Shown here: one piece after another, positions 8,054 through 19,902 of the stretch
Position numbering within the stretch: position 1 is the stretch's first letter
Layout of the letters: every line of letters starts with the position of its first letter
IMG/VR virus record: IMGVR_UViG_3300009157_000018
Location: 27,462 to 91,461 of that record
Direction: 5' to 3' (one strand)
Length of the DNA: 64,000 nucleotides
From: a virus
The notes under the pieces: model-generated
Told to the model about the DNA's origin: nothing
Databases searched by the model: none
The model's input: only the letters and a program-made list of their open reading frames with translations
Made by a program: the position numbers and the translations under genes

Positions 8054-8128
8054 TGGAGGACCAGTTGGGGGTCGAACCCAAGTCGTCGGTTTACGAAACC
8101 GGCATCCTAGCCACTAGACGACTGATCC
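8054..8128 (-). tRNA. tRNA-Thr(CGT)
   Basis: Cloverleaf, loop TT-CGT-AA, encoded CCA. Confidence 0.9.
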
Positions 8129-8668
8129 CCTGATAATTTTTCGCACCTGAGGCCATGAGGAGGCCCTAGGAAGCCCGCTAAGGTCCGTAGTGAGGTTGTG
8201 CGCCCTAGCAAATAAAATTGCCTTCCTGTCGGATTCCAGGAACTCTAGGCAATTTTGAGGCTTGTCATCAACAAGCAATTCTGCGTCAGTAAAATCGATC
8301 TTCCGATCTTTAGGCCCGACGATGGTGACTCTCTGGAATTGAGGGCGCCATTTGCCGAGCCACTTCCAAGTGTTGTACTCGGCCCATTGGGGCTTGGAGG
8401 TAACGCATTCTAGATAATGACCTTCCCGCCGTAATCGATCTAAGGTTCCGATTGCTCCGTCTACGGCAGGGAAGGTATGCCATAACCATTCTCGTTCTCG
8501 TAGCCATGTCCACCAGTTCTGTCCAATGATAGGATCAAGGATAGGATGTAGGTCCCACTGATAGATATCTTCTTCGGAAAGAACTACACCGTACTCCTTC
8601 TTAACAGAGTCGCGGAGTCCCCCCACAAAATCTAGAACAGTATCGTCTAGATCGATTGCCAAATGCAT
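8114..8668 (-). CDS. HAD-family 5'(3')-deoxyribonucleotidase (NT5C-like)
   Basis: N-terminal DLDDT (DxDxT), VTS motif, LVDDKPQN; its stop lies inside tRNA-Thr(CGT). Confidence 0.85.
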   Translation of the reverse strand: MHLAIDLDDTVLDFVGGLRDSVKKEYGVVLSEEDIYQWDLHPILDPIIGQNWWTWLREREWLWHTFPAVDGAIGTLDRLRREGHYLECVTSKPQWAEYNTWKWLGKWRPQFQRVTIVGPKDRKIDFTDAELLVDDKPQNCLEFLESDRKAILFARAHNLTTDLSGLPRASSWPQVRKIIRGSVV

Positions 8669-8850: not shown

Positions 8851-9216
8851 TTACTTTCCTTCCTCTTCATCGTGAAGAATCTTCGAAGCCACGAATTCCC
8901 CAGCCATGATATTGAACATCACGGCAGCCGCGTGGTCTTCGTCTGTTTCCCCCGTCGCCCATTGTATCAGATGCCGCAAAGCCGACGAGCGATAGCGTGC
9001 TAGTTCTTCTTCTCCTCTCGCCATCTCCCAATTGCGAGCGTCGTATTTCTCAGCTCCCCTGGTCATCAGGTCTGCAAATCGCGTTAGCATCTGCTCATGA
9101 TACGGAACGCCGAGCGGAAATAAGAGATCGAATCTGGCTTTCCCATCCTCGGTATCGCGTACCATTCCGCTCTCGTACTCGCTACGCTTGCCAGAATCCT
9201 TGGTAATCCTTGTCAT
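8851..9216 (-). CDS. dATP/dGTP diphosphohydrolase N-terminal domain (DUF5664-like) protein
   Basis: K.RFDLL, GAEKYDARNWE, SALRHL..W..GE.DEDH motifs; start placed at ATG 9216 after an SD-like sequence. Confidence 0.8.
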   Translation of the reverse strand: MTRITKDSGKRSEYESGMVRDTEDGKARFDLLFPLGVPYHEQMLTRFADLMTRGAEKYDARNWEMARGEEELARYRSSALRHLIQWATGETDEDHAAAVMFNIMAGEFVASKILHDEEEGK

Positions 9217-9379
9217 ACCTTCCCTTATCATCGTAGAACTGTGGTTGCTGGTAATCCTTGTGGGTGTGACGATCCTTGGTGTTGTTGGTTCTAGAGCGAG
9301 AAGCATCACAGCATTTAATCCCACCAGGACAAGAGGGGAACATATAAGTCTTGGGCTTATGCCTCTTGAAATTAGCCAT
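9182..9379 (-). CDS. Hypothetical protein
   Basis: SD AAAGGTGA then ATG 9379; the longer track ORF overlaps a tRNA. Confidence 0.45.
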   Translation of the reverse strand: MANFKRHKPKTYMFPSCPGGIKCCDASRSRTNNTKDRHTHKDYQQPQFYDDKGRYDKDYQGFWQA

Positions 9380-9474: not shown

Positions 9475-9548
9475 TGGAGCCGGAGCTGGGAGTCGAACCC
9501 AAACTGAATCCTTACCAAGGATTTAGTCTACCGTTAACTTACACCGAC
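9475..9548 (-). tRNA. tRNA-Thr(GGT)
   Basis: Cloverleaf, loop TT-GGT-AA, CCA. Confidence 0.9.
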
Positions 9549-11902: not shown

Positions 11903-11978
11903 TGGTGGGCAGCATAGGGATCGAACCTATGACCTACTGTATGTCATACAGACGCTCTTACCGCTGAGCTAGCCGCCC
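11903..11978 (-). tRNA. tRNA-Val(GAC)
   Basis: Loop AT-GAC-AT, CCA. Confidence 0.9.
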
Positions 11979-12573: not shown

Positions 12574-12649
12574 TGGTACCCTCGGTCAGATTCGAACTGA
12601 CACTGGACCGGGCTTAAACCGGACGCCTCTGCCGTTGGGCTACGAGGGC
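12574..12649 (-). tRNA. tRNA-Leu(TAA), short variable loop
   Basis: Loop TT-TAA-GC, A73, CCA. Confidence 0.88.
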
Positions 12650-13881
12650 TCTCTTAGCCGGAACCCGGCCTGTACCTGTTCGGGTTCGGCACGAATAGCC
12701 GACCCCTTAGATTGATCAAACAACTCTGCTATTGTATGCGATCTTTTCTCAATTGTCAAGTCATGCTCGGCAGCCCATTGTGCGGACTCAGTTGCATTTA
12801 ACTCACTGAATCGGATGCTGGCTGAAATTCGACCAGGACGAGCCACCGCTGGATGGAATCTACCGATATCTTCATTGGTAGTAATCAGTACAAGGATGCG
12901 AAGCCCTTGACCAATCAATCCATCTACGAGGTTCAGTAGACGACTTAAACCCTGGCCTGATCGCTCTTTAGCATCTGCGCTTAAGAGCTCGCCTGTATCT
13001 TCGAAGATCAGGGTGCGCCAGCGTTTGTCTGGCTCACTCTCGCCCTCGTCATCATCAAGCGGAGAATATCTCTCACTACCGATGATAACATTCATCAGAT
13101 AGGATGCTTCTGCACCGAAGAATTTCTCAGGGTCAACGACATACTCGAAATCACACCAATCTCGCCATTCGTTAGCCAGTGCCCGAATTGCATAGGTTTT
13201 CCCGGTTCCTGGAGGGCCATACCACAAGAGCAATTGTCCTGTGACTAAAGATTCGGGCCGGAAATCCTTGGCCAACATCTTCGATAGACCTGTGTAGGTC
13301 TCATAAGAATAGTTGGGTGCGATTTCGTCCCATTTTGGAACTGCAATCTTCCGACGAATCAGATTCGGGCCGTTGGATGCCAGCGACCAGAAGTGCAGAT
13401 CAATGATGTGTTCGTCGCCTTCGGCTGTGATCGGCTTATACACATCATGTAGGCCGATCAGCCACTTCACACCTATGTCATAGTCATCTGTGTAACAAGT
13501 GAAGGTAGAAGCTCCGGCATCGCGAGATACAATGTCAATGATAATCTCGTCATTGATCCAAGTAAAACGCTCCCAGCGCTTGCTGCTATTCTTGAAAGTT
13601 TTGGGGTCCATGTAGCTGCGCCGATAAAACAACGGCACGCCCATGTCCGCAAGGTGAGACTCTTCTACGACTACATCCGTCTCCCAATTGGCAGACACAC
13701 AATAACGAAGACCTCGGGCCGCGATCTCGCGCATCGCGATATCGTGTCCCAGACTGTCATCGCTGGTTTCCAAGGCCAATCCAATTTGCTTCGCATCAGT
13801 CTCGACTAATACCCCTGTACTTGCCGGTAGACCAATTTCAGCCCTGGAGAAATCCTTGCCCTTGTCGTATGATCTTCCCAT
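12640..13881 (-). CDS. AAA+ ATPase (DUF5925-associated type)
   Basis: Walker A YGPPGTGKT, Walker B LIFED, LSRLLNLVDGL, ITTN, RPGR arginine finger; stop TAG is positions 8-10 of tRNA-Leu(TAA). Confidence 0.85.
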   Translation of the reverse strand: MGRSYDKGKDFSRAEIGLPASTGVLVETDAKQIGLALETSDDSLGHDIAMREIAARGLRYCVSANWETDVVVEESHLADMGVPLFYRRSYMDPKTFKNSSKRWERFTWINDEIIIDIVSRDAGASTFTCYTDDYDIGVKWLIGLHDVYKPITAEGDEHIIDLHFWSLASNGPNLIRRKIAVPKWDEIAPNYSYETYTGLSKMLAKDFRPESLVTGQLLLWYGPPGTGKTYAIRALANEWRDWCDFEYVVDPEKFFGAEASYLMNVIIGSERYSPLDDDEGESEPDKRWRTLIFEDTGELLSADAKERSGQGLSRLLNLVDGLIGQGLRILVLITTNEDIGRFHPAVARPGRISASIRFSELNATESAQWAAEHDLTIEKRSHTIAELFDQSKGSAIRAEPEQVQAGFRLREPS

Positions 13882-15600: not shown

Positions 15601-15678
15601 TGGTGGAGGCGCGGAGAATCGAACTCCGATCTTTCGGGTGCAAACCGACTGTGTAGACGCCACTAGCACTACACCCCC
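15601..15678 (-). tRNA. tRNA-Ala(TGC)
   Basis: G3-U70, A73, loop TT-TGC-AC, CCA. Confidence 0.9.
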
Positions 15679-16456: not shown

Positions 16457-16532
16457 TGGCGGCGCCCAAGAGACTCGAACTCTCTGACTTCTGGTTGACA
16501 ACCAGATACCGATACCCTTTGGCTTCGGCGCC
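16457..16532 (-). tRNA. tRNA-Asp(GTC)
   Basis: Loop TT-GTC-AA, G73, CCA. Confidence 0.88.
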
Positions 16533-16541
16533 ACGCTAATT

Positions 16542-16615
16542 TGGAGCGGCTACCCAGGATCGAACTGGGACTAACAGCTTGGAAGGCTGTTGTACTGCCG
16601 TTATACGACAGCCGC
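16542..16615 (-). tRNA. tRNA-Gly(TCC)
   Basis: Loop CT-TCC-AA, U73, CCA. Confidence 0.92.
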
Positions 16616-17253
16616 TAGTTCAATTGTTGATGCTGTCCTGACCGCCTACCCCATAGCCAACTACCGATCATCAACAGAAGCACAACACCTACTACGCTAA
16701 TCCCACCAGGAATTTCCGGTGTGGCTGTGTCCGTTAAGGGTCCAGGTAGAGATGGATACTCACCGCCGGTGCCAGGACCAGGTAGTGGAGGTGCAGGCGC
16801 TCCGGGTGAAACATCACACGGTCTACTGAAAAGGCTGACGAAGTATGTTCGTCCAGTAGAAGGCTGGAAATATGCAGCGGAACCGATTTCAGCCCAATTG
16901 CCAGTCATTACGGCAAGGTGAGACGGACTGCCGATCCATCCGATTACCGCCTGCGCCAAAGGATCAGCGTAACCCTTATTCCACGCAATGATCTCGCCCC
17001 ACGACCAACAACCTAACCGTTGGGTTAGATCGGTGTGTGCAAACTCTCCCGTCACTGTGATTTCTATTACTCGTTCTAGTGCAACTCTGGTTAGCAGTGC
17101 AGAGGTTGGTAGGTCCGATTCTCCTACCGACACACGATACGCATTAACGGCGTCATCGACTGGTGTGGCTGCGTAAACTGGAGTTGTAATCCCAAATACA
17201 AGTGCAAGAATGATAATAATTAACCTTCGCATCAGGTCCCCCCCCAACATCAT
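16615..17253 (-). CDS. Secreted CAP (SCP/PR-1) domain protein with Pro-rich linker and C-terminal membrane anchor
   Basis: Signal peptide; VNAYR, FAH, GEIIAW, W.GSPSHL motifs; C-terminal LTDTA + TM + RR. Confidence 0.8.
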   Translation of the reverse strand: MMLGGDLMRRLIIIILALVFGITTPVYAATPVDDAVNAYRVSVGESDLPTSALLTRVALERVIEITVTGEFAHTDLTQRLGCWSWGEIIAWNKGYADPLAQAVIGWIGSPSHLAVMTGNWAEIGSAAYFQPSTGRTYFVSLFSRPCDVSPGAPAPPLPGPGTGGEYPSLPGPLTDTATPEIPGGISVVGVVLLLMIGSWLWGRRSGQHQQLN

Positions 17254-17380: not shown

Positions 17381-17454
17381 TGGTAGCGACTGCGGGACTC
17401 GAACCCGCTTCTCCGACTTGAAAGGCCGGATGCTCAGCCCTATGCTCAGCCGCC
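17381..17454 (-). tRNA. tRNA-Glu(TTC)
   Basis: Loop CT-TTC-AA, weak D arm, CCA. Confidence 0.82.
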
Positions 17455-17777: not shown

Positions 17778-17851
17778 TGGCTGGCTCGCTAGGATTCGAA
17801 CCTAGATAGTGAGGACCAAAATCTCACGTCCTGCCGTTAGACGACAAGCCA
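17778..17851 (-). tRNA. tRNA-Gln(TTG)
   Basis: U1-A72, loop TT-TTG-GT, G73, CCA. Confidence 0.9.
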
Positions 17852-18113
17852 ACGCTATTGTGGCGGTAGTACTCCCCAGGCTATGGTGGGCCAAGGACCG
17901 CCGAATAAATGCGCTTACTAGCCTTGCGTCCAAGGCCACCCCGCCTCCAGGCTTTCTACTAAAGTGCCTATTCCCTCAGCGCGTAGTCCAAGGAGCAGAG
18001 GCCCGAAGGCATGCTCCCGGTTAAAATAAGGTCAGGATGGATCACTGCAGGTCTCATCAACGCACCGGTATCTACTTGCCGGAGGCTCTCTCTTGGCCTA
18101 CTGACCTTATAAA

Positions 18114-18198
18114 TGGTGGAGGCGCCGACGAGTTGCACATCGGGTCCGAAACCGTTCTCTTGCGAGGCTTACAGCTTCGTCGAACCTATCTCACCCCC
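18114..18198 (-). ncRNA. Mini-tmRNA: tRNA-like domain only, no tag reading frame
   Basis: GGGGGTG-AGATAGGTTCGAC-GAAGCTGT...ACGGTTTC-GGAC-CCGATG-TGCAACT-CGTCGG-CGCCTCC-ACCA. G3-U70, A73, stemless D loop ending TTCGAC, P2-like stem capped by a GCAA hairpin. Confidence 0.8.
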
Positions 18199-18202
18199 AG
18201 GT

Positions 18203-18277
18203 TGGCTGGCACGGAAGGGATCGAACCTTCGAATACACGGTTAACAGCCGCGCTCTTTACCGCTCAGACACATGCCA
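18203..18277 (-). tRNA. tRNA-Asn(GTT)
   Basis: Loop CT-GTT-AA, G73, CCA. Confidence 0.9.
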
Positions 18278-18284
18278 ACGCTAA

Positions 18285-19083
18285 TGGCGAACACGATCAA
18301 TGTTTCGGTGCGGTCCATATCACGATAGTACCTCAGGTGATCGACCCTTCGCTACGTTGAACCCTATCCTAGTTCGCCTAAGCCAGCGTTTGAACAGGGG
18401 CGACCCGTCAACCTCTGGCTGTATAAATGATGCTGCTAGATTATCTGGACCTAGGAATCGACCGTCGCCTTAGAGGTCGTCTAATGTCCCTAACCTGAAA
18501 TGCATTAAGCCTAGCCTTCGGATTGAATAATCCGATCTTAGGCTTATAAGAACGGGGAACTCTAAAAAATTTCCCAGGCATAATATCCCCTAATCTGTTG
18601 GTCAGCGTCATCCTCATATCTGACCTGTCAGCCCCTCTATACTCCATTCCGAGTGCCCTAGCACTTTAGGTATAGAACCTTGTGGCCGTTGCCACGCTGC
18701 TGACTTCCCGTCGTGGATTCTCCCAAGTCTGTGTCCTTTAATTTCCAGACTATATCCAGCTCGCGGGAAGCGATAATGGATAGTTGTGAAAGCCACAACA
18801 AGAGTCACCACTATAAAATACCTTTGGGGAGTTTATGGGAAGGTGTACACCACTACTCTTGCTCTTGCAAGTCCTGCTCCCCAAAGGCAGTTAAATTGGC
18901 TTCGCGGGTTTCTAGTAAGACCCCAAGCCAGTTACCTTCTGCCACAACTAGAACACGGCGGTAACGAATAAATGAGGTAAGGCTTGCCTGGATACGCTAC
19001 CCATGACCAAGGCGTCCGTCCAGGGCGATGGAATCCAAGCCATCGCCGTGCGTGGGGAGGAGGTACCCCACACCGTATTCGCC
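18285..19083 (-). ncRNA. Large (~799 nt) multi-hairpin ncRNA, GOLLD-like candidate
   Basis: 12-bp closing helix GGCGAATACGGT/ATCGTGTTCGCC ending in CCA; more than 12 internal helices and a pseudoknot; no credible ORF; inside a phage tRNA cluster. Confidence 0.65.
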
Positions 19084-19873: not shown

Positions 19874-19902
19874 ACTGTAACACAGCTCTTTGGGCTTGTC
19901 AA
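19874..19902 (-). promoter_or_regulatory. Promoter at the head of the tRNA island
   Basis: CACTTGACA-17-TACAGT; the same motif recurs at 54964-54992 and 62310-62338. Confidence 0.7.

What the first reader, a model, noticed from the sequence alone, without database searches (positions are those of the whole stretch)
18114..18198. Tag-less mini-tmRNA: an 85-nt tRNA-like domain with no mRNA domain
Seen: the acceptor stem is identical to the phage tRNA-Ala (GGGGGTG/CGCCTCC, G3-U70, A73, CCA). It is followed by a stemless D loop ending GGTTCGAC, an 8-bp helix GAAGCTGT/ACGGTTTC, a GGAC linker and a T arm. Where tmRNA has several hundred nt of pseudoknots and tag ORF, there is only AAGC-CTC-GCAA-GAG-A. 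Known: these are the AlaRS, EF-Tu and SmpB determinants of tmRNA, and tag-less forms are known from some protist mitochondria. The gene is in normal order, so it is not a two-piece permuted tmRNA. Inference: the neat GNRA cap suggests a selected RNA rather than a deletion scar. It could titrate SmpB to inhibit trans-translation, or rescue stalled ribosomes by adding Ala without a degradation tag. Either would fit the non-stop mRNAs predicted in the same island.
Basis: partly seen in the sequence, partly recalled or inferred. Interest (0 to 1): 0.9.

Follow-up and report, generated by a model that had tools for sequence, protein, structure and literature searches.

The report
Tag-less mini-tmRNA in phage tRNA array
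An 85-base gene in a phage's tRNA cluster encodes only the tRNA-like half of the bacterial ribosome-rescue RNA (tmRNA); this kind of RNA is already known from mycobacteriophage DS6A, recurs in well over a hundred viral contigs, and probably blocks or bypasses the host's tagging of unfinished proteins.

Summary
It has a 7-bp acceptor stem with G3:U70, A73 and CCA, a stemless D loop ending UUCGAC, an 8-bp P2 helix capped by 15 nt, a GGAC linker and a T arm.

A covariance model built from 30 other viral mini-tmRNAs, with this one left out, finds it end to end (53 bits, E 2e-10). The same model finds the published 'TLD-only' tmRNA of mycobacteriophage DS6A (59.9 bits). The kind is therefore known, and a similar molecule was reported to inhibit tmRNA in E. 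coli.

New here is the breadth. About 140 IMG/VR contigs carry one, and so do unannotated cultured Streptomyces phages. Helices covary strongly. G1:C72, G3:U70 and A73 are invariant in 93 of 93 unbiased hits. The cap motif is conserved, and no SmpB gene was found in 38 carrier records, this contig included.

The window's copy is the most divergent member. Its D loop is 1 nt shorter, its T stem has 6 bp, and its T loop is UGCAACU. It scores below Rfam's tmRNA threshold, and ARAGORN misses it.

The most likely mechanism is that host AlaRS charges it and it takes host SmpB and stalled ribosomes from host tmRNA, which suppresses ssrA tagging. Verdict: a new member of a known kind, of moderate interest.

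The parts
18114..18198 (-). 85-nt TLD-only (tag-less) tmRNA gene with encoded CCA
   Evidence: Sequence and fold. R1 gives 53 bits, E 2e-10, full length. RF00023 gives 28.5 bits with both termini aligned.
18192..18198 (-). Acceptor stem, 5' strand GGGGGUG (RNA nt 1-7); G3 pairs with U70
   Evidence: G1:C72, G2:C71 and G3:U70 are invariant in 97 of 97 family members.
18179..18191 (-). D loop without a stem, ending GGUUCGAC (nt 8-20); 1 nt shorter than the family norm
   Evidence: UCGAC is present in all 97 family members and the preceding U in 96. In E. coli, U17 and G19 of this motif contact SmpB (PMC8363625).
18171..18178 (-). P2 helix, 5' strand GAAGCUGU (nt 21-28)
   Evidence: All 7 modelled P2 pairs show changes on both sides across the family.
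18156..18170 (-). 15-nt cap in place of pseudoknots and tag ORF: AAGC, then the hairpin CUC-GCAA-GAG, then A (nt 29-43)
   Evidence: It fits the family cap consensus AAA-n-CC..gcA..G-n-A. There is no room for a resume codon, tag ORF or stop.
18148..18155 (-). P2 helix, 3' strand ACGGUUUC (nt 44-51)
18144..18147 (-). GGAC linker (nt 52-55); its A corresponds to E. coli A334 in the SmpB Trp122 pocket
   Evidence: 99-100% conserved in the family. PMC8363625.
18125..18143 (-). T arm (nt 56-74): 6-bp stem CCGAUG/CGUCGG and 7-nt loop UGCAACU. No fetched relative has a 6-bp T stem or this T loop.
   Evidence: Every other hit of the patterns that allowed 19-24 nt here had a 5-bp stem. No relative with this T arm was found in viral or metagenome contigs.
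18114..18124 (-). Acceptor stem 3' strand CGCCUCC, discriminator A73 and encoded CCA (nt 75-85)
   Evidence: A73 is present in 93 of 93 unbiased family hits.
18203..18277 (-). tRNA-Asn(GUU) immediately upstream, 4-nt spacer. This implies co-transcription and tRNA-type end processing.
15601..15678 (-). Phage tRNA-Ala(UGC) with an identical acceptor stem, A73 and CCA
   Evidence: alignment
19874..19902 (-). Sigma-70-like promoter match (TTGACA-17-TACAGT with TG) upstream of the tRNA array. No terminator-like site lies between it and the mini-tmRNA.
   Evidence: consensus match only
8114..8128 (-). Context: the NT5C gene (8114-8668) has its stop codon at nt 13-15 of tRNA-Thr(CGU). The AAA-ATPase gene (12640-13881) stops at nt 8-10 of tRNA-Leu(UAA). 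The stop of the CAP-domain gene (16615-17253) ends on G1 of tRNA-Gly(UCC).
   Evidence: Coordinates; Pfam domains

Best explanation
This is a phage-encoded TLD-only tmRNA of the same kind as the DS6A 'TLD only' tmRNA.

Proposed mechanism, all inferred:
1. It is transcribed with the tRNA array and trimmed like a tRNA.
2. Host AlaRS charges it with alanine through G3:U70 and A73.
3. Its UUCGAC and GGAC elbow binds host SmpB. No SmpB gene was found in this contig.
4. With EF-Tu it competes with host tmRNA for SmpB and for ribosomes stalled at mRNA 3' ends.
5. It has no resume codon or tag ORF, so nascent chains do not receive the ssrA degradation tag.

The net effect is that trans-translation tagging is suppressed during infection. 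This may protect phage proteins made from truncated messages, including the messages this phage would itself create when tRNAs that overlap gene ends are excised.

What is shown: the structure, family membership, covariation, invariant identity elements, and absence of an SmpB gene from the carrier records searched. How the ribosome is released after peptidyl transfer is unknown.
For: Family membership:
- R1, built without this sequence, gives 53 bits, E 2e-10, full length.
- The same model finds DS6A's published TLD-only tmRNA at JN698994 28478-28560 with 59.9 bits.
- It also finds an unannotated copy in Streptomyces phage LuckySocke at 62.5 bits.

Selection on the structure:
- In 97 distinct members, 93.3% of cells are paired and 18 of 21 pairs change on both sides. 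The covariation score is 0.728, against 0.06-0.10 for slid controls.

Charging is under selection:
- A pattern that left the acceptor stem and discriminator free gave 101 unique sequences.
- Of these, 93 have a perfect 7-bp acceptor stem. All 93 have G1:C72, G3:U70 and A73.

The SmpB platform is conserved:
- UCGAC is invariant in all 97 family members, the U before it is present in 96, and GGAC is 99-100% conserved.
- U17, G19 and A334 are SmpB contacts in E. coli (PMC8363625).
- No SmpB gene was found in this contig or in 37 other carrier records, 15 of which are at least 90% complete.

Published behaviour of such molecules:
- A similar TLD-only RNA strongly inhibits tmRNA in E. coli (Mao 2009, as cited in PMC4131195 and PMC11915505).
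- A truncated tmRNA with SmpB and EF-Tu binds the ribosome (PMC8363625).
- A TLD-only RNA accepts the peptide in vitro (Shimizu and Ueda 2006, as cited in PMC3895274).

Context:
- The gene sits inside the tRNA array, 4 nt after tRNA-Asn.
- The stop codons of two Pfam-supported genes lie inside the next tRNA, and a third ends on its first base.
Against: - Nothing was measured for this RNA or for any phage infection.
- The window's copy is the lowest-scoring family member. It has a 6-bp T stem (a 13-bp acceptor/T stack), G at the psi55 position and a shorter D loop. It scores 28.5 bits on RF00023, which is no better than the phage tRNA-Ala at 28.8 bits. It might therefore bind EF-Tu or the ribosome poorly.
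- No close relative was found, so its odd T arm has no covariation support.
- As cited in PMC4131195, the Mao 2009 inhibition did not depend on chargeability. That fits a plain SmpB sponge better than ribosome entry.
- A peptidyl-TLD with no stop codon could trap ribosomes, which would also hurt the phage.
- The host is unknown.
Confidence: 0.6

Rival explanations
1. Productive tag-less rescue is the selected function. Ala-TLD with SmpB enters stalled ribosomes and takes the nascent chain. A host factor such as ArfB, ArfA/RF2 or Pth then releases the chain untagged. Ribosomes are recycled and phage proteins from non-stop mRNAs survive.
For: Alanine identity elements and the CCA end are invariant across the family. 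A TLD-only RNA accepts the peptide in vitro (PMC3895274). The stop codons of two Pfam-supported genes lie inside downstream tRNAs and a third ends on the tRNA's first base. Mitochondrial tmRNAs without a tag frame are conserved together with SmpB (PMC11915505).
Against: No release step is known for a peptidyl-TLD. The reported in vivo effect of a similar RNA is inhibition of tmRNA. No release factor was looked for in the phage. The overlap of stop codons with U8-A9-G10 of tRNAs may be incidental.
Confidence: 0.25
2. Pure SmpB sponge. The RNA only sequesters SmpB off the ribosome. Charging and ribosome entry are irrelevant.
For: As cited in PMC4131195, inhibition of tmRNA by a similar RNA occurred whether or not it was chargeable, 'perhaps acting by titrating SmpB'. 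The SmpB-contact motifs are nearly invariant.
Against: A sponge does not need G3:U70, A73, a perfect acceptor stem or a canonical T arm, yet these are invariant or covarying in 93-97 members.
Confidence: 0.1
3. This particular copy is a decaying or non-functional derivative: a pseudogene of the family or a deletion scar of a full-length phage tmRNA.
For: It scores lowest in the family and has an aberrant T loop, T-stem length and D loop. No relative shares the variant. A true deletion-type tmRNA exists in a Pseudescherichia MAG (102 nt; L142).
Against: All four helices pair perfectly (7, 8, 3 and 6 bp). The cap fits the family motif. U54, C56, A58 and the G53-C61 closing pair are retained. It sits in register in the tRNA array with an encoded CCA.
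Confidence: 0.05
4. Decoy or trigger in a defence and counter-defence contest. The TLD-only RNA would be aimed at host systems that read tmRNA-like RNAs, such as proteins with SmpB-like OB folds or TerY-P modules, rather than at trans-translation itself.
For: Victivallales MAGs carry 81-nt mini-tmRNAs inside conserved VWA/kinase-like/PP2C (TerY-P-like) cassettes, alongside a normal tmRNA and SmpB. TerY-P-like modules act as anti-phage systems and co-occur with SmpB-like domains (PMC10542128).
Against: The evidence is association only and comes from a different lineage. The host of this phage is unknown and nothing here links it to such a system.
Confidence: 0.05

Closest known systems
Mycobacteriophage DS6A 'TLD only' tmRNA (tmRNA Website; Hudson, Lau and Williams 2014, PMC4131195; Mao et al. 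2009)
   Same: Phage-encoded, about 83 nt, normal gene order. Acceptor stem with G3:U70, a D loop ending UCGAC, a P2 helix closed by a short cap with the AAA-n-CC motif, and a T arm. The same covariance model hits both (53 and 59.9 bits).
   Different: DS6A has a canonical 5-bp T stem with a UUCGAUU loop, GCAC in place of GGAC, and no encoded CCA. It stands alone rather than in a tRNA array, in a temperate 60-kb phage that also encodes RtcB. The window's copy has a 6-bp T stem, a UGCAACU loop and an encoded CCA, and it sits in a 29-tRNA array.
Standard one-piece bacterial tmRNA (SsrA, Rfam RF00023)
   Same: Both TLD halves align to model positions 1-29 and about 334-374. These carry the AlaRS identity elements and the U17, G19 and A334 equivalents that contact SmpB.
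   Different: There is no mRNA-like domain, resume codon, tag ORF or pseudoknots; 13 nt replace 304 model positions. The score is below the gathering threshold (28.5 against 47).
CDS-less organellar tmRNAs (jakobid and other mitochondrial tmRNAs, RF02544; ~65-bp Mallomonadaceae plastid forms)
   Same: A tmRNA reduced to the tRNA-like part with no tag reading frame, presumed to work with SmpB (PMC11915505).
   Different: The mitochondrial genes are usually permuted into two pieces. The window's gene is in normal order, is viral, and shows no specific sequence relationship to them.
Engineered TLD fragments used in structural and kinetic work (Neubauer 2012 and Shimizu and Ueda 2006, as cited in PMC8363625 and PMC3895274)
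   Same: TLD closed at P2 by a short loop. These fragments bind SmpB, EF-Tu and the stalled ribosome, and accept the peptide.
   Different: They are laboratory constructs. The viral family keeps a conserved asymmetric cap rather than an arbitrary loop.
Two-piece (permuted) tmRNA, Rfam RF04321
   Same: The 3' 65 nt align to the acceptor-piece part of the model (27.8 bits).
   Different: The 5' acceptor strand and D loop lie upstream in normal order, and no coding piece follows. It is not permuted.

Membership tests
TLD-only (CDS-less, standard-order) phage tmRNA, DS6A type | Both TLD halves in normal order, joined by a P2 hairpin, total length about 73-90 nt | tested here: met
   85 nt; see the parts list. 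The family length range is 73-90 nt.
TLD-only (CDS-less, standard-order) phage tmRNA, DS6A type | Recognised full length by a covariance model built from other members | tested here: met
   R1, built from 30 viral sequences without the window, gives 53 bits and E 2e-10. DS6A scores 59.9 bits. This is the lowest of 97 members.
TLD-only (CDS-less, standard-order) phage tmRNA, DS6A type | Conserved cap motif (AAA-n-CC .. gcA .. G-n-A) between the P2 strands | tested here: met
   The window has UAAGCC..GCA..G-A-A in the aligned columns.
TLD-only (CDS-less, standard-order) phage tmRNA, DS6A type | Inhibits host tmRNA, binds SmpB, or is alanylated | not testable with these tools
   Only literature on a similar molecule is available (PMC4131195, PMC11915505).
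tmRNA (Rfam RF00023, standard form) | Acceptor stem with G3:U70, A73 and CCA | tested here: met
tmRNA (Rfam RF00023, standard form) | D loop without a stem carrying GG and UUCGAC, and GGAC 3' of P2 (the SmpB platform) | tested here: met
   The D loop is 1 nt shorter than usual.
tmRNA (Rfam RF00023, standard form) | Canonical T arm (5 bp, loop UUCRANY) | tested here: not met
   6-bp stem and loop UGCAACU. U54, C56 and A58 are retained.
tmRNA (Rfam RF00023, standard form) | mRNA-like domain with resume codon, tag ORF and stop; pseudoknots | tested here: not met
   Only 15 nt lie between the P2 strands. RF00023 aligns 13 nt against 304 model positions.
tmRNA (Rfam RF00023, standard form) | Score at or above the Rfam gathering threshold (47 bits) | tested here: not met
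   28.5 bits. In contrast, 36 of 37 other carrier records scored over the threshold; their mini-tmRNAs gave 51-81 bits.
Two-piece permuted tmRNA (RF04321) | Acceptor piece upstream of the coding piece in the gene | tested here: not met
   Normal gene order. The match is partial at 27.8 bits, below the threshold of 47.
tRNA-Ala | Cloverleaf with a D stem and an anticodon arm bearing an Ala anticodon | tested here: not met
   ARAGORN does not call it. It has no D stem, and an 8-bp helix with a 15-nt cap stands in place of the anticodon arm. Rfam's best match in the tRNA/tmRNA clan is tmRNA.

The most novel reading that the evidence does not exclude
TLD-only tmRNAs may be pieces in a contest over the SmpB/tmRNA axis. 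Phages would deploy them, charged with Ala, to switch off tagging or to decoy host sensors that carry SmpB-like folds. Some bacteria (Victivallales) would carry the same RNA inside TerY-P-type cassettes as part of a defence or regulatory module. On this reading, the window's variant, with its 13-bp acceptor/T stack and G at position 55, is a specialised form rather than a decaying one.
Probability: 0.12. Interest if true: 0.85.

Novelty: new member of a known kind. Interest (0 to 1): 0.5.

Why it matters
Trans-translation is the main ribosome-rescue and quality-control pathway of bacteria. A phage RNA that disarms or bypasses it would be a compact, RNA-only host-takeover device. The literature names one phage example, DS6A. 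The 2025 tmRNA database lists only 9 'standard, no CDS' sequences in total.

- About 140 IMG/VR contigs match a strict pattern.
- Cultured Streptomyces phages carry unannotated copies.
- The alanine identity elements are invariant.
- The cap motif is conserved.
- No SmpB gene was found in the carrier records searched.

The function can therefore be tested in tractable phage-host pairs. The window adds a divergent variant inside a tRNA array where two genes have their stop codon inside the next tRNA and a third ends on its first base. That suggests a concrete reason for a phage to avoid ssrA tagging. It also matters for annotation, because ARAGORN misses these genes or extends them wrongly.

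Tried and rejected
- **ARAGORN:** no call at the site. In L011 it extends a mini-tmRNA into a false 324-nt tmRNA with 'Tag not identified'.
- **Rfam at gathering threshold:** nothing at the site over the whole window. In a 601-nt scan only a weak permuted-tmRNA hit appeared. RF00023 run on the whole contig picked tRNA-Ala, not the candidate.
- **Close relatives of this phage or this variant:** BLAST of the region against phages found only tRNA-Asn. A search for relatives of the neighbouring 411-aa protein gave none. A pattern for the 6-bp T arm gave 0 viral hits. It gave 2 metagenome hits that look like chance matches: R1 does not hit them and ARAGORN calls nothing there. The capsid protein has no close cultured relative, so the host remains unknown.
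- **Void result:** the first genome contigs pattern (0 hits) had one N too many between the T loop and CTCCACCA. That zero means nothing. The second pattern gave 14 loci.
- **Phage-encoded SmpB:** no match in this contig or in 37 carrier records.
- **Association with RtcB (seen in DS6A):** found in only 3 of 38 records, so rejected.
- **Acceptor stem always copied from the phage's own tRNA-Ala:** true for only 2 of 8 arrays, so rejected as a rule.
- **A tiny tag frame in the cap:** none. A frame starting at the cap's GCA runs to the 3' end of the RNA without a stop (reading of the sequence).
- **Downstream 262-nt spacer (17852-18113) as a separate mRNA-like piece:** no tmRNA-family match. The TLD is already closed by its own cap.
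- **Mao et al. 2009:** not held in the library. It is cited only through PMC4131195 and PMC11915505.

Full report
**1. What is there**

Window 18114-18198, read on the minus strand, is an 85-nt sequence. Its minimum-energy fold contains four helices:
- a 7-bp acceptor stem, GGGGGUG/CGCCUCC, with G3:U70, followed by A73 and CCA;
- an 8-bp helix, GAAGCUGU/ACGGUUUC;
- a 3-bp hairpin, CUC-GCAA-GAG, inside a 15-nt cap;
- a 6-bp T stem with the loop UGCAACU.

Between the acceptor stem and the 8-bp helix lies a 13-nt D loop without a stem, ending GGUUCGAC. Between the helix and the T arm lies GGAC.

The gene starts 4 nt after tRNA-Asn (18203-18277). It lies on the same strand as all 29 tRNAs that ARAGORN finds between 7473 and 19765. 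A promoter-like site lies upstream of the array at 19874-19902, and no terminator-like site intervenes. The phage tRNA-Ala at 15601-15678 has the same acceptor stem, discriminator and CCA.

The window is part of a 91-kb IMG/VR virus contig, estimated 73% complete. The contig encodes a terminase, a major head protein, a weak tail-tube match and nucleotide-metabolism genes. It has no close cultured relative.

**2. Standard detectors**

- ARAGORN does not call the candidate.
- Rfam at gathering threshold reports only tRNAs in the window.
- When only the short stretch is given, RF00023 (tmRNA) aligns it end to end, model positions 1-374. The 5' 29 nt and the 3' 43 nt match, and 13 nt stand in for 304 model positions. 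The score is 28.5 bits against a gathering score of 47.
The score alone does not separate it from the phage tRNA-Ala, which scores 28.8 bits.
- The permuted-tmRNA model matches only the 3' part, at 27.8 bits.

**3. It belongs to a family**

A pattern for short tmRNA-like genes found 32 viral contigs, and a variant of that pattern found 6 more. Each carries a 79-86-nt gene of the same architecture.

On 30 distinct sequences, 16 of 22 proposed pairs show changes on both sides. From these 30, with the window left out, I built covariance model R1. R1 behaves as follows:
- It finds the window's candidate as its top hit: 53 bits, E 2e-10, full length. tRNA-Ala is next at 32.9 bits.
- The candidate is the only copy in the contig.

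A second pattern left the acceptor stem and discriminator free.
- A partition scan suggests about 140 contigs in total. It returned 41 contigs, of which 35 had already been fetched.
- Of 101 unique sequences, 93 have a perfect 7-bp acceptor stem.
- All 93 have G1:C72, G3:U70 and A73.

In a 97-member model alignment:
- 93.3% of cells are paired, and 18 of 21 pairs change on both sides.
- The covariation score is 0.728, against 0.06-0.10 when partners are slid.
- UCGAC is invariant, the U before it is present in 96 of 97, and GGAC is 99-100% conserved.
- The cap carries a conserved asymmetric motif, AAA-n-CC .. gcA .. G-n-A, which the window's copy fits.

The 'neat GNRA cap' is therefore one version of a selected element. 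The RNA is neither a deletion scar nor a chance resemblance.

**4. The kind is already known**

- Hudson, Lau and Williams 2014 list 'Mycobacterium phage DS6A (TLD only)'. [quoted passage not shown] 2009 (PMC4131195).
- The 2025 tmRNA database paper repeats this. It counts only 9 'standard, no CDS' sequences among 97,179, and 79 phage tmRNAs in all (PMC11915505).
- R1 finds the DS6A gene at JN698994 28478-28560 with 59.9 bits and the same cap motif.
- The current RF00023 model scored over its threshold in 36 of 37 other carrier records; their mini-tmRNAs gave 51-81 bits. The form is therefore within reach of Rfam-based annotation.
- DS6A (43.2 bits) and the window (28.5 bits) fall below the threshold.
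- I found no paper that surveys the phage family or tests it during infection.

**5. Breadth and context**

- About a third of the first 38 loci have tRNA genes in the fetched flank, in several cases directly adjacent. The rest have none in the flank.
- Carrier genomes range from 32 to 194 kb.
- No SmpB gene was found in this contig or in 37 other carrier records, 15 of which are at least 90% complete.
- One complete 124-kb phage has both a full-length tmRNA-like gene and a mini-tmRNA.
- Cultured Streptomyces phages carry unannotated members. LuckySocke has one at OR725497.1 17977-18057 (62.5 bits), between tRNA-Val and tRNA-Ser. GiJojo, pSt2308 and Alone3 match by BLAST.
- Among species-representative bacterial genomes, the 14 hits are all MAG contigs. 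Two Christensenella contigs carry the same RNA as viral locus L008, next to a similar tRNA array. One Hydrogenophaga contig holds a 17-tRNA array. One Pseudescherichia contig has an E. coli-type tmRNA with a large internal deletion. Ten are Victivallales or Lentisphaeria contigs (see section 8).

**6. How this copy differs**

- Its D loop is 1 nt shorter than in most members.
- Its T stem has 6 bp, so the acceptor/T stack is 13 bp.
- Its T loop is UGCAACU. U54, C56, A58 and the G53-C61 closing pair are kept, but G replaces the usual U/psi55.
- Every other hit of the patterns that allowed this spacing had a 5-bp stem.
- No relative with this T arm exists in the viral or metagenome collections.
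- All its helices pair perfectly, which argues against decay. Its unusual T arm has no comparative support.

**7. Mechanism**

Established knowledge:
- SmpB binds the TLD elbow. In E. coli, Trp122 sits in a pocket formed by A15, U17 and A334, and a G19-to-C change abolishes binding. A truncated tmRNA with SmpB and EF-Tu was crystallised on the ribosome (PMC8363625).
- Peptidyl transfer to a TLD-only RNA occurs in vitro (PMC3895274).
- A TLD-only RNA inhibits tmRNA in vivo (PMC4131195).

The window's RNA keeps the U17, G19 and A334 equivalents and all the alanine identity elements.

The best-supported reading is that host AlaRS charges it and that it captures host SmpB. It would then compete with host tmRNA for stalled ribosomes, so that nascent chains are not ssrA-tagged.

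The invariance of G3:U70, A73 and the acceptor and T helices across the family argues that charging and delivery are selected. A pure off-ribosome sponge would not need them. The reported chargeability-independent inhibition points the other way.

What happens after peptidyl transfer is open. Release by an alternative rescue factor would make this tag-less rescue. Failure to release would make it a trap.

One local motive is plausible but unproven. The NT5C gene has its stop at nt 13-15 of tRNA-Thr. The AAA-ATPase gene has its stop at nt 8-10 of tRNA-Leu. The stop of a CAP-domain gene ends on G1 of tRNA-Gly. Excising those tRNAs would leave non-stop messages.

**8. Seen in passing**

In Victivallales and Lentisphaeria MAGs, 81-nt mini-tmRNAs score 75-82 bits on R1. 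Their T loop is AUCGUUA, which looks like a swap of the U54-A58 pair to A54-U58.

They lie, often in two copies, inside a conserved same-strand cassette. In L136 the order is: VWA plus NYN-RNase protein, kinase-like protein, mini-tmRNA, glycine-zipper ORF, mini-tmRNA, VWA protein, PP2C phosphatase. The cassette proteins are conserved down to 45-50% identity.

These genomes also have a normal tmRNA (150-171 bits in four of the five searched) and SmpB. The cassette resembles the TerY-P triad. TerY-P-like modules can act as anti-phage systems and co-occur with SmpB-like domains (PMC10542128). This is association only.

**9. Verdict**

The element is a new, divergent member of a known but little-studied kind. 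The family-level facts gathered here go beyond what I found in the searchable literature. They are its size, the invariant alanine identity, the conserved cap, the absence of SmpB genes from the carriers searched, and the cultured carriers. They make the function testable. Interest is moderate.

Noticed in passing
L136:205-5728 (Lentisphaeria MAG DPDG01000045.1); also L132-L135, L137, L138, L140, L143, L145: Victivallales and Lentisphaeria MAGs carry 1-5 mini-tmRNAs of 81 nt with the T loop AUCGUUA, apparently an A54-U58 swap. They lie inside a conserved same-strand cassette: VWA plus NYN RNase, kinase-like protein, mini-tmRNA, Gly-zipper ORF, mini-tmRNA, VWA, PP2C (TerY-P-like). The same genomes also have a normal tmRNA (in four of the five searched) and SmpB. 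This may be a bacterial system that uses a TLD-only RNA.
   Followed up: partly
window 8114-8128, 9539-9548, 11969-11978, 12640-12649, 16615: Five minus-strand ORFs end inside, or on the first base of, the next tRNA gene. Three have Pfam support: NT5C, an AAA ATPase and a weak CAP-domain match. tRNA 5' processing would therefore remove their stop codons. I checked coordinates only, and U8-A9-G10 of tRNAs often reads as a stop.
   Followed up: partly
G023 (record of L050): C1:77588-77979 and C1:46486-46567 (L160, L161): One complete 124-kb phage contig carries both a 392-nt full-length tmRNA-like gene (94 bits; ARAGORN finds no recognised tag) and a mini-tmRNA. The two share the same T stem.
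   Followed up: partly
L148:1491-1571 (Streptomyces phage LuckySocke OR725497.1 17977-18057): An unannotated TLD-only tmRNA (R1 62.5 bits; no encoded CCA) lies between tRNA-Val and tRNA-Ser in a cultured phage. GiJojo, pSt2308 and Alone3 match by BLAST. These would make a tractable model.
   Followed up: partly
L142:4791-4892 (Pseudescherichia MAG DAMBQR010000027.1): An E. coli-type tmRNA reduced to 102 nt by a large internal deletion (5' about 51 nt joined to 3' about 51 nt). It is a deletion-type contrast to the capped viral family, and it could be an assembly artefact.
   Followed up: no
window 17852-18113 and 18285-19083 (minus strand): Long ORF-poor spacers in the tRNA array flank the mini-tmRNA. 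They have stable-looking hairpins, and no Rfam family matched in 17850-18450. Rfam also finds tRNAs that ARAGORN missed at 17384-17454 and 16460-16532.
   Followed up: no
L149:1456-1534 (Pseudomonas phage SM1 NC_041877.1, unannotated): A tmRNA-like 3' half (GGAC, T arm, CAGCUCCACCA) without a matching 5' acceptor strand. It may be the acceptor piece of a permuted tmRNA or a fragment.
   Followed up: no
window 8851-9324: A dATP/dGTP diphosphohydrolase N-terminal domain protein sits inside the tRNA island, next to the NT5C gene. It hints at modified-nucleotide metabolism.
   Followed up: no
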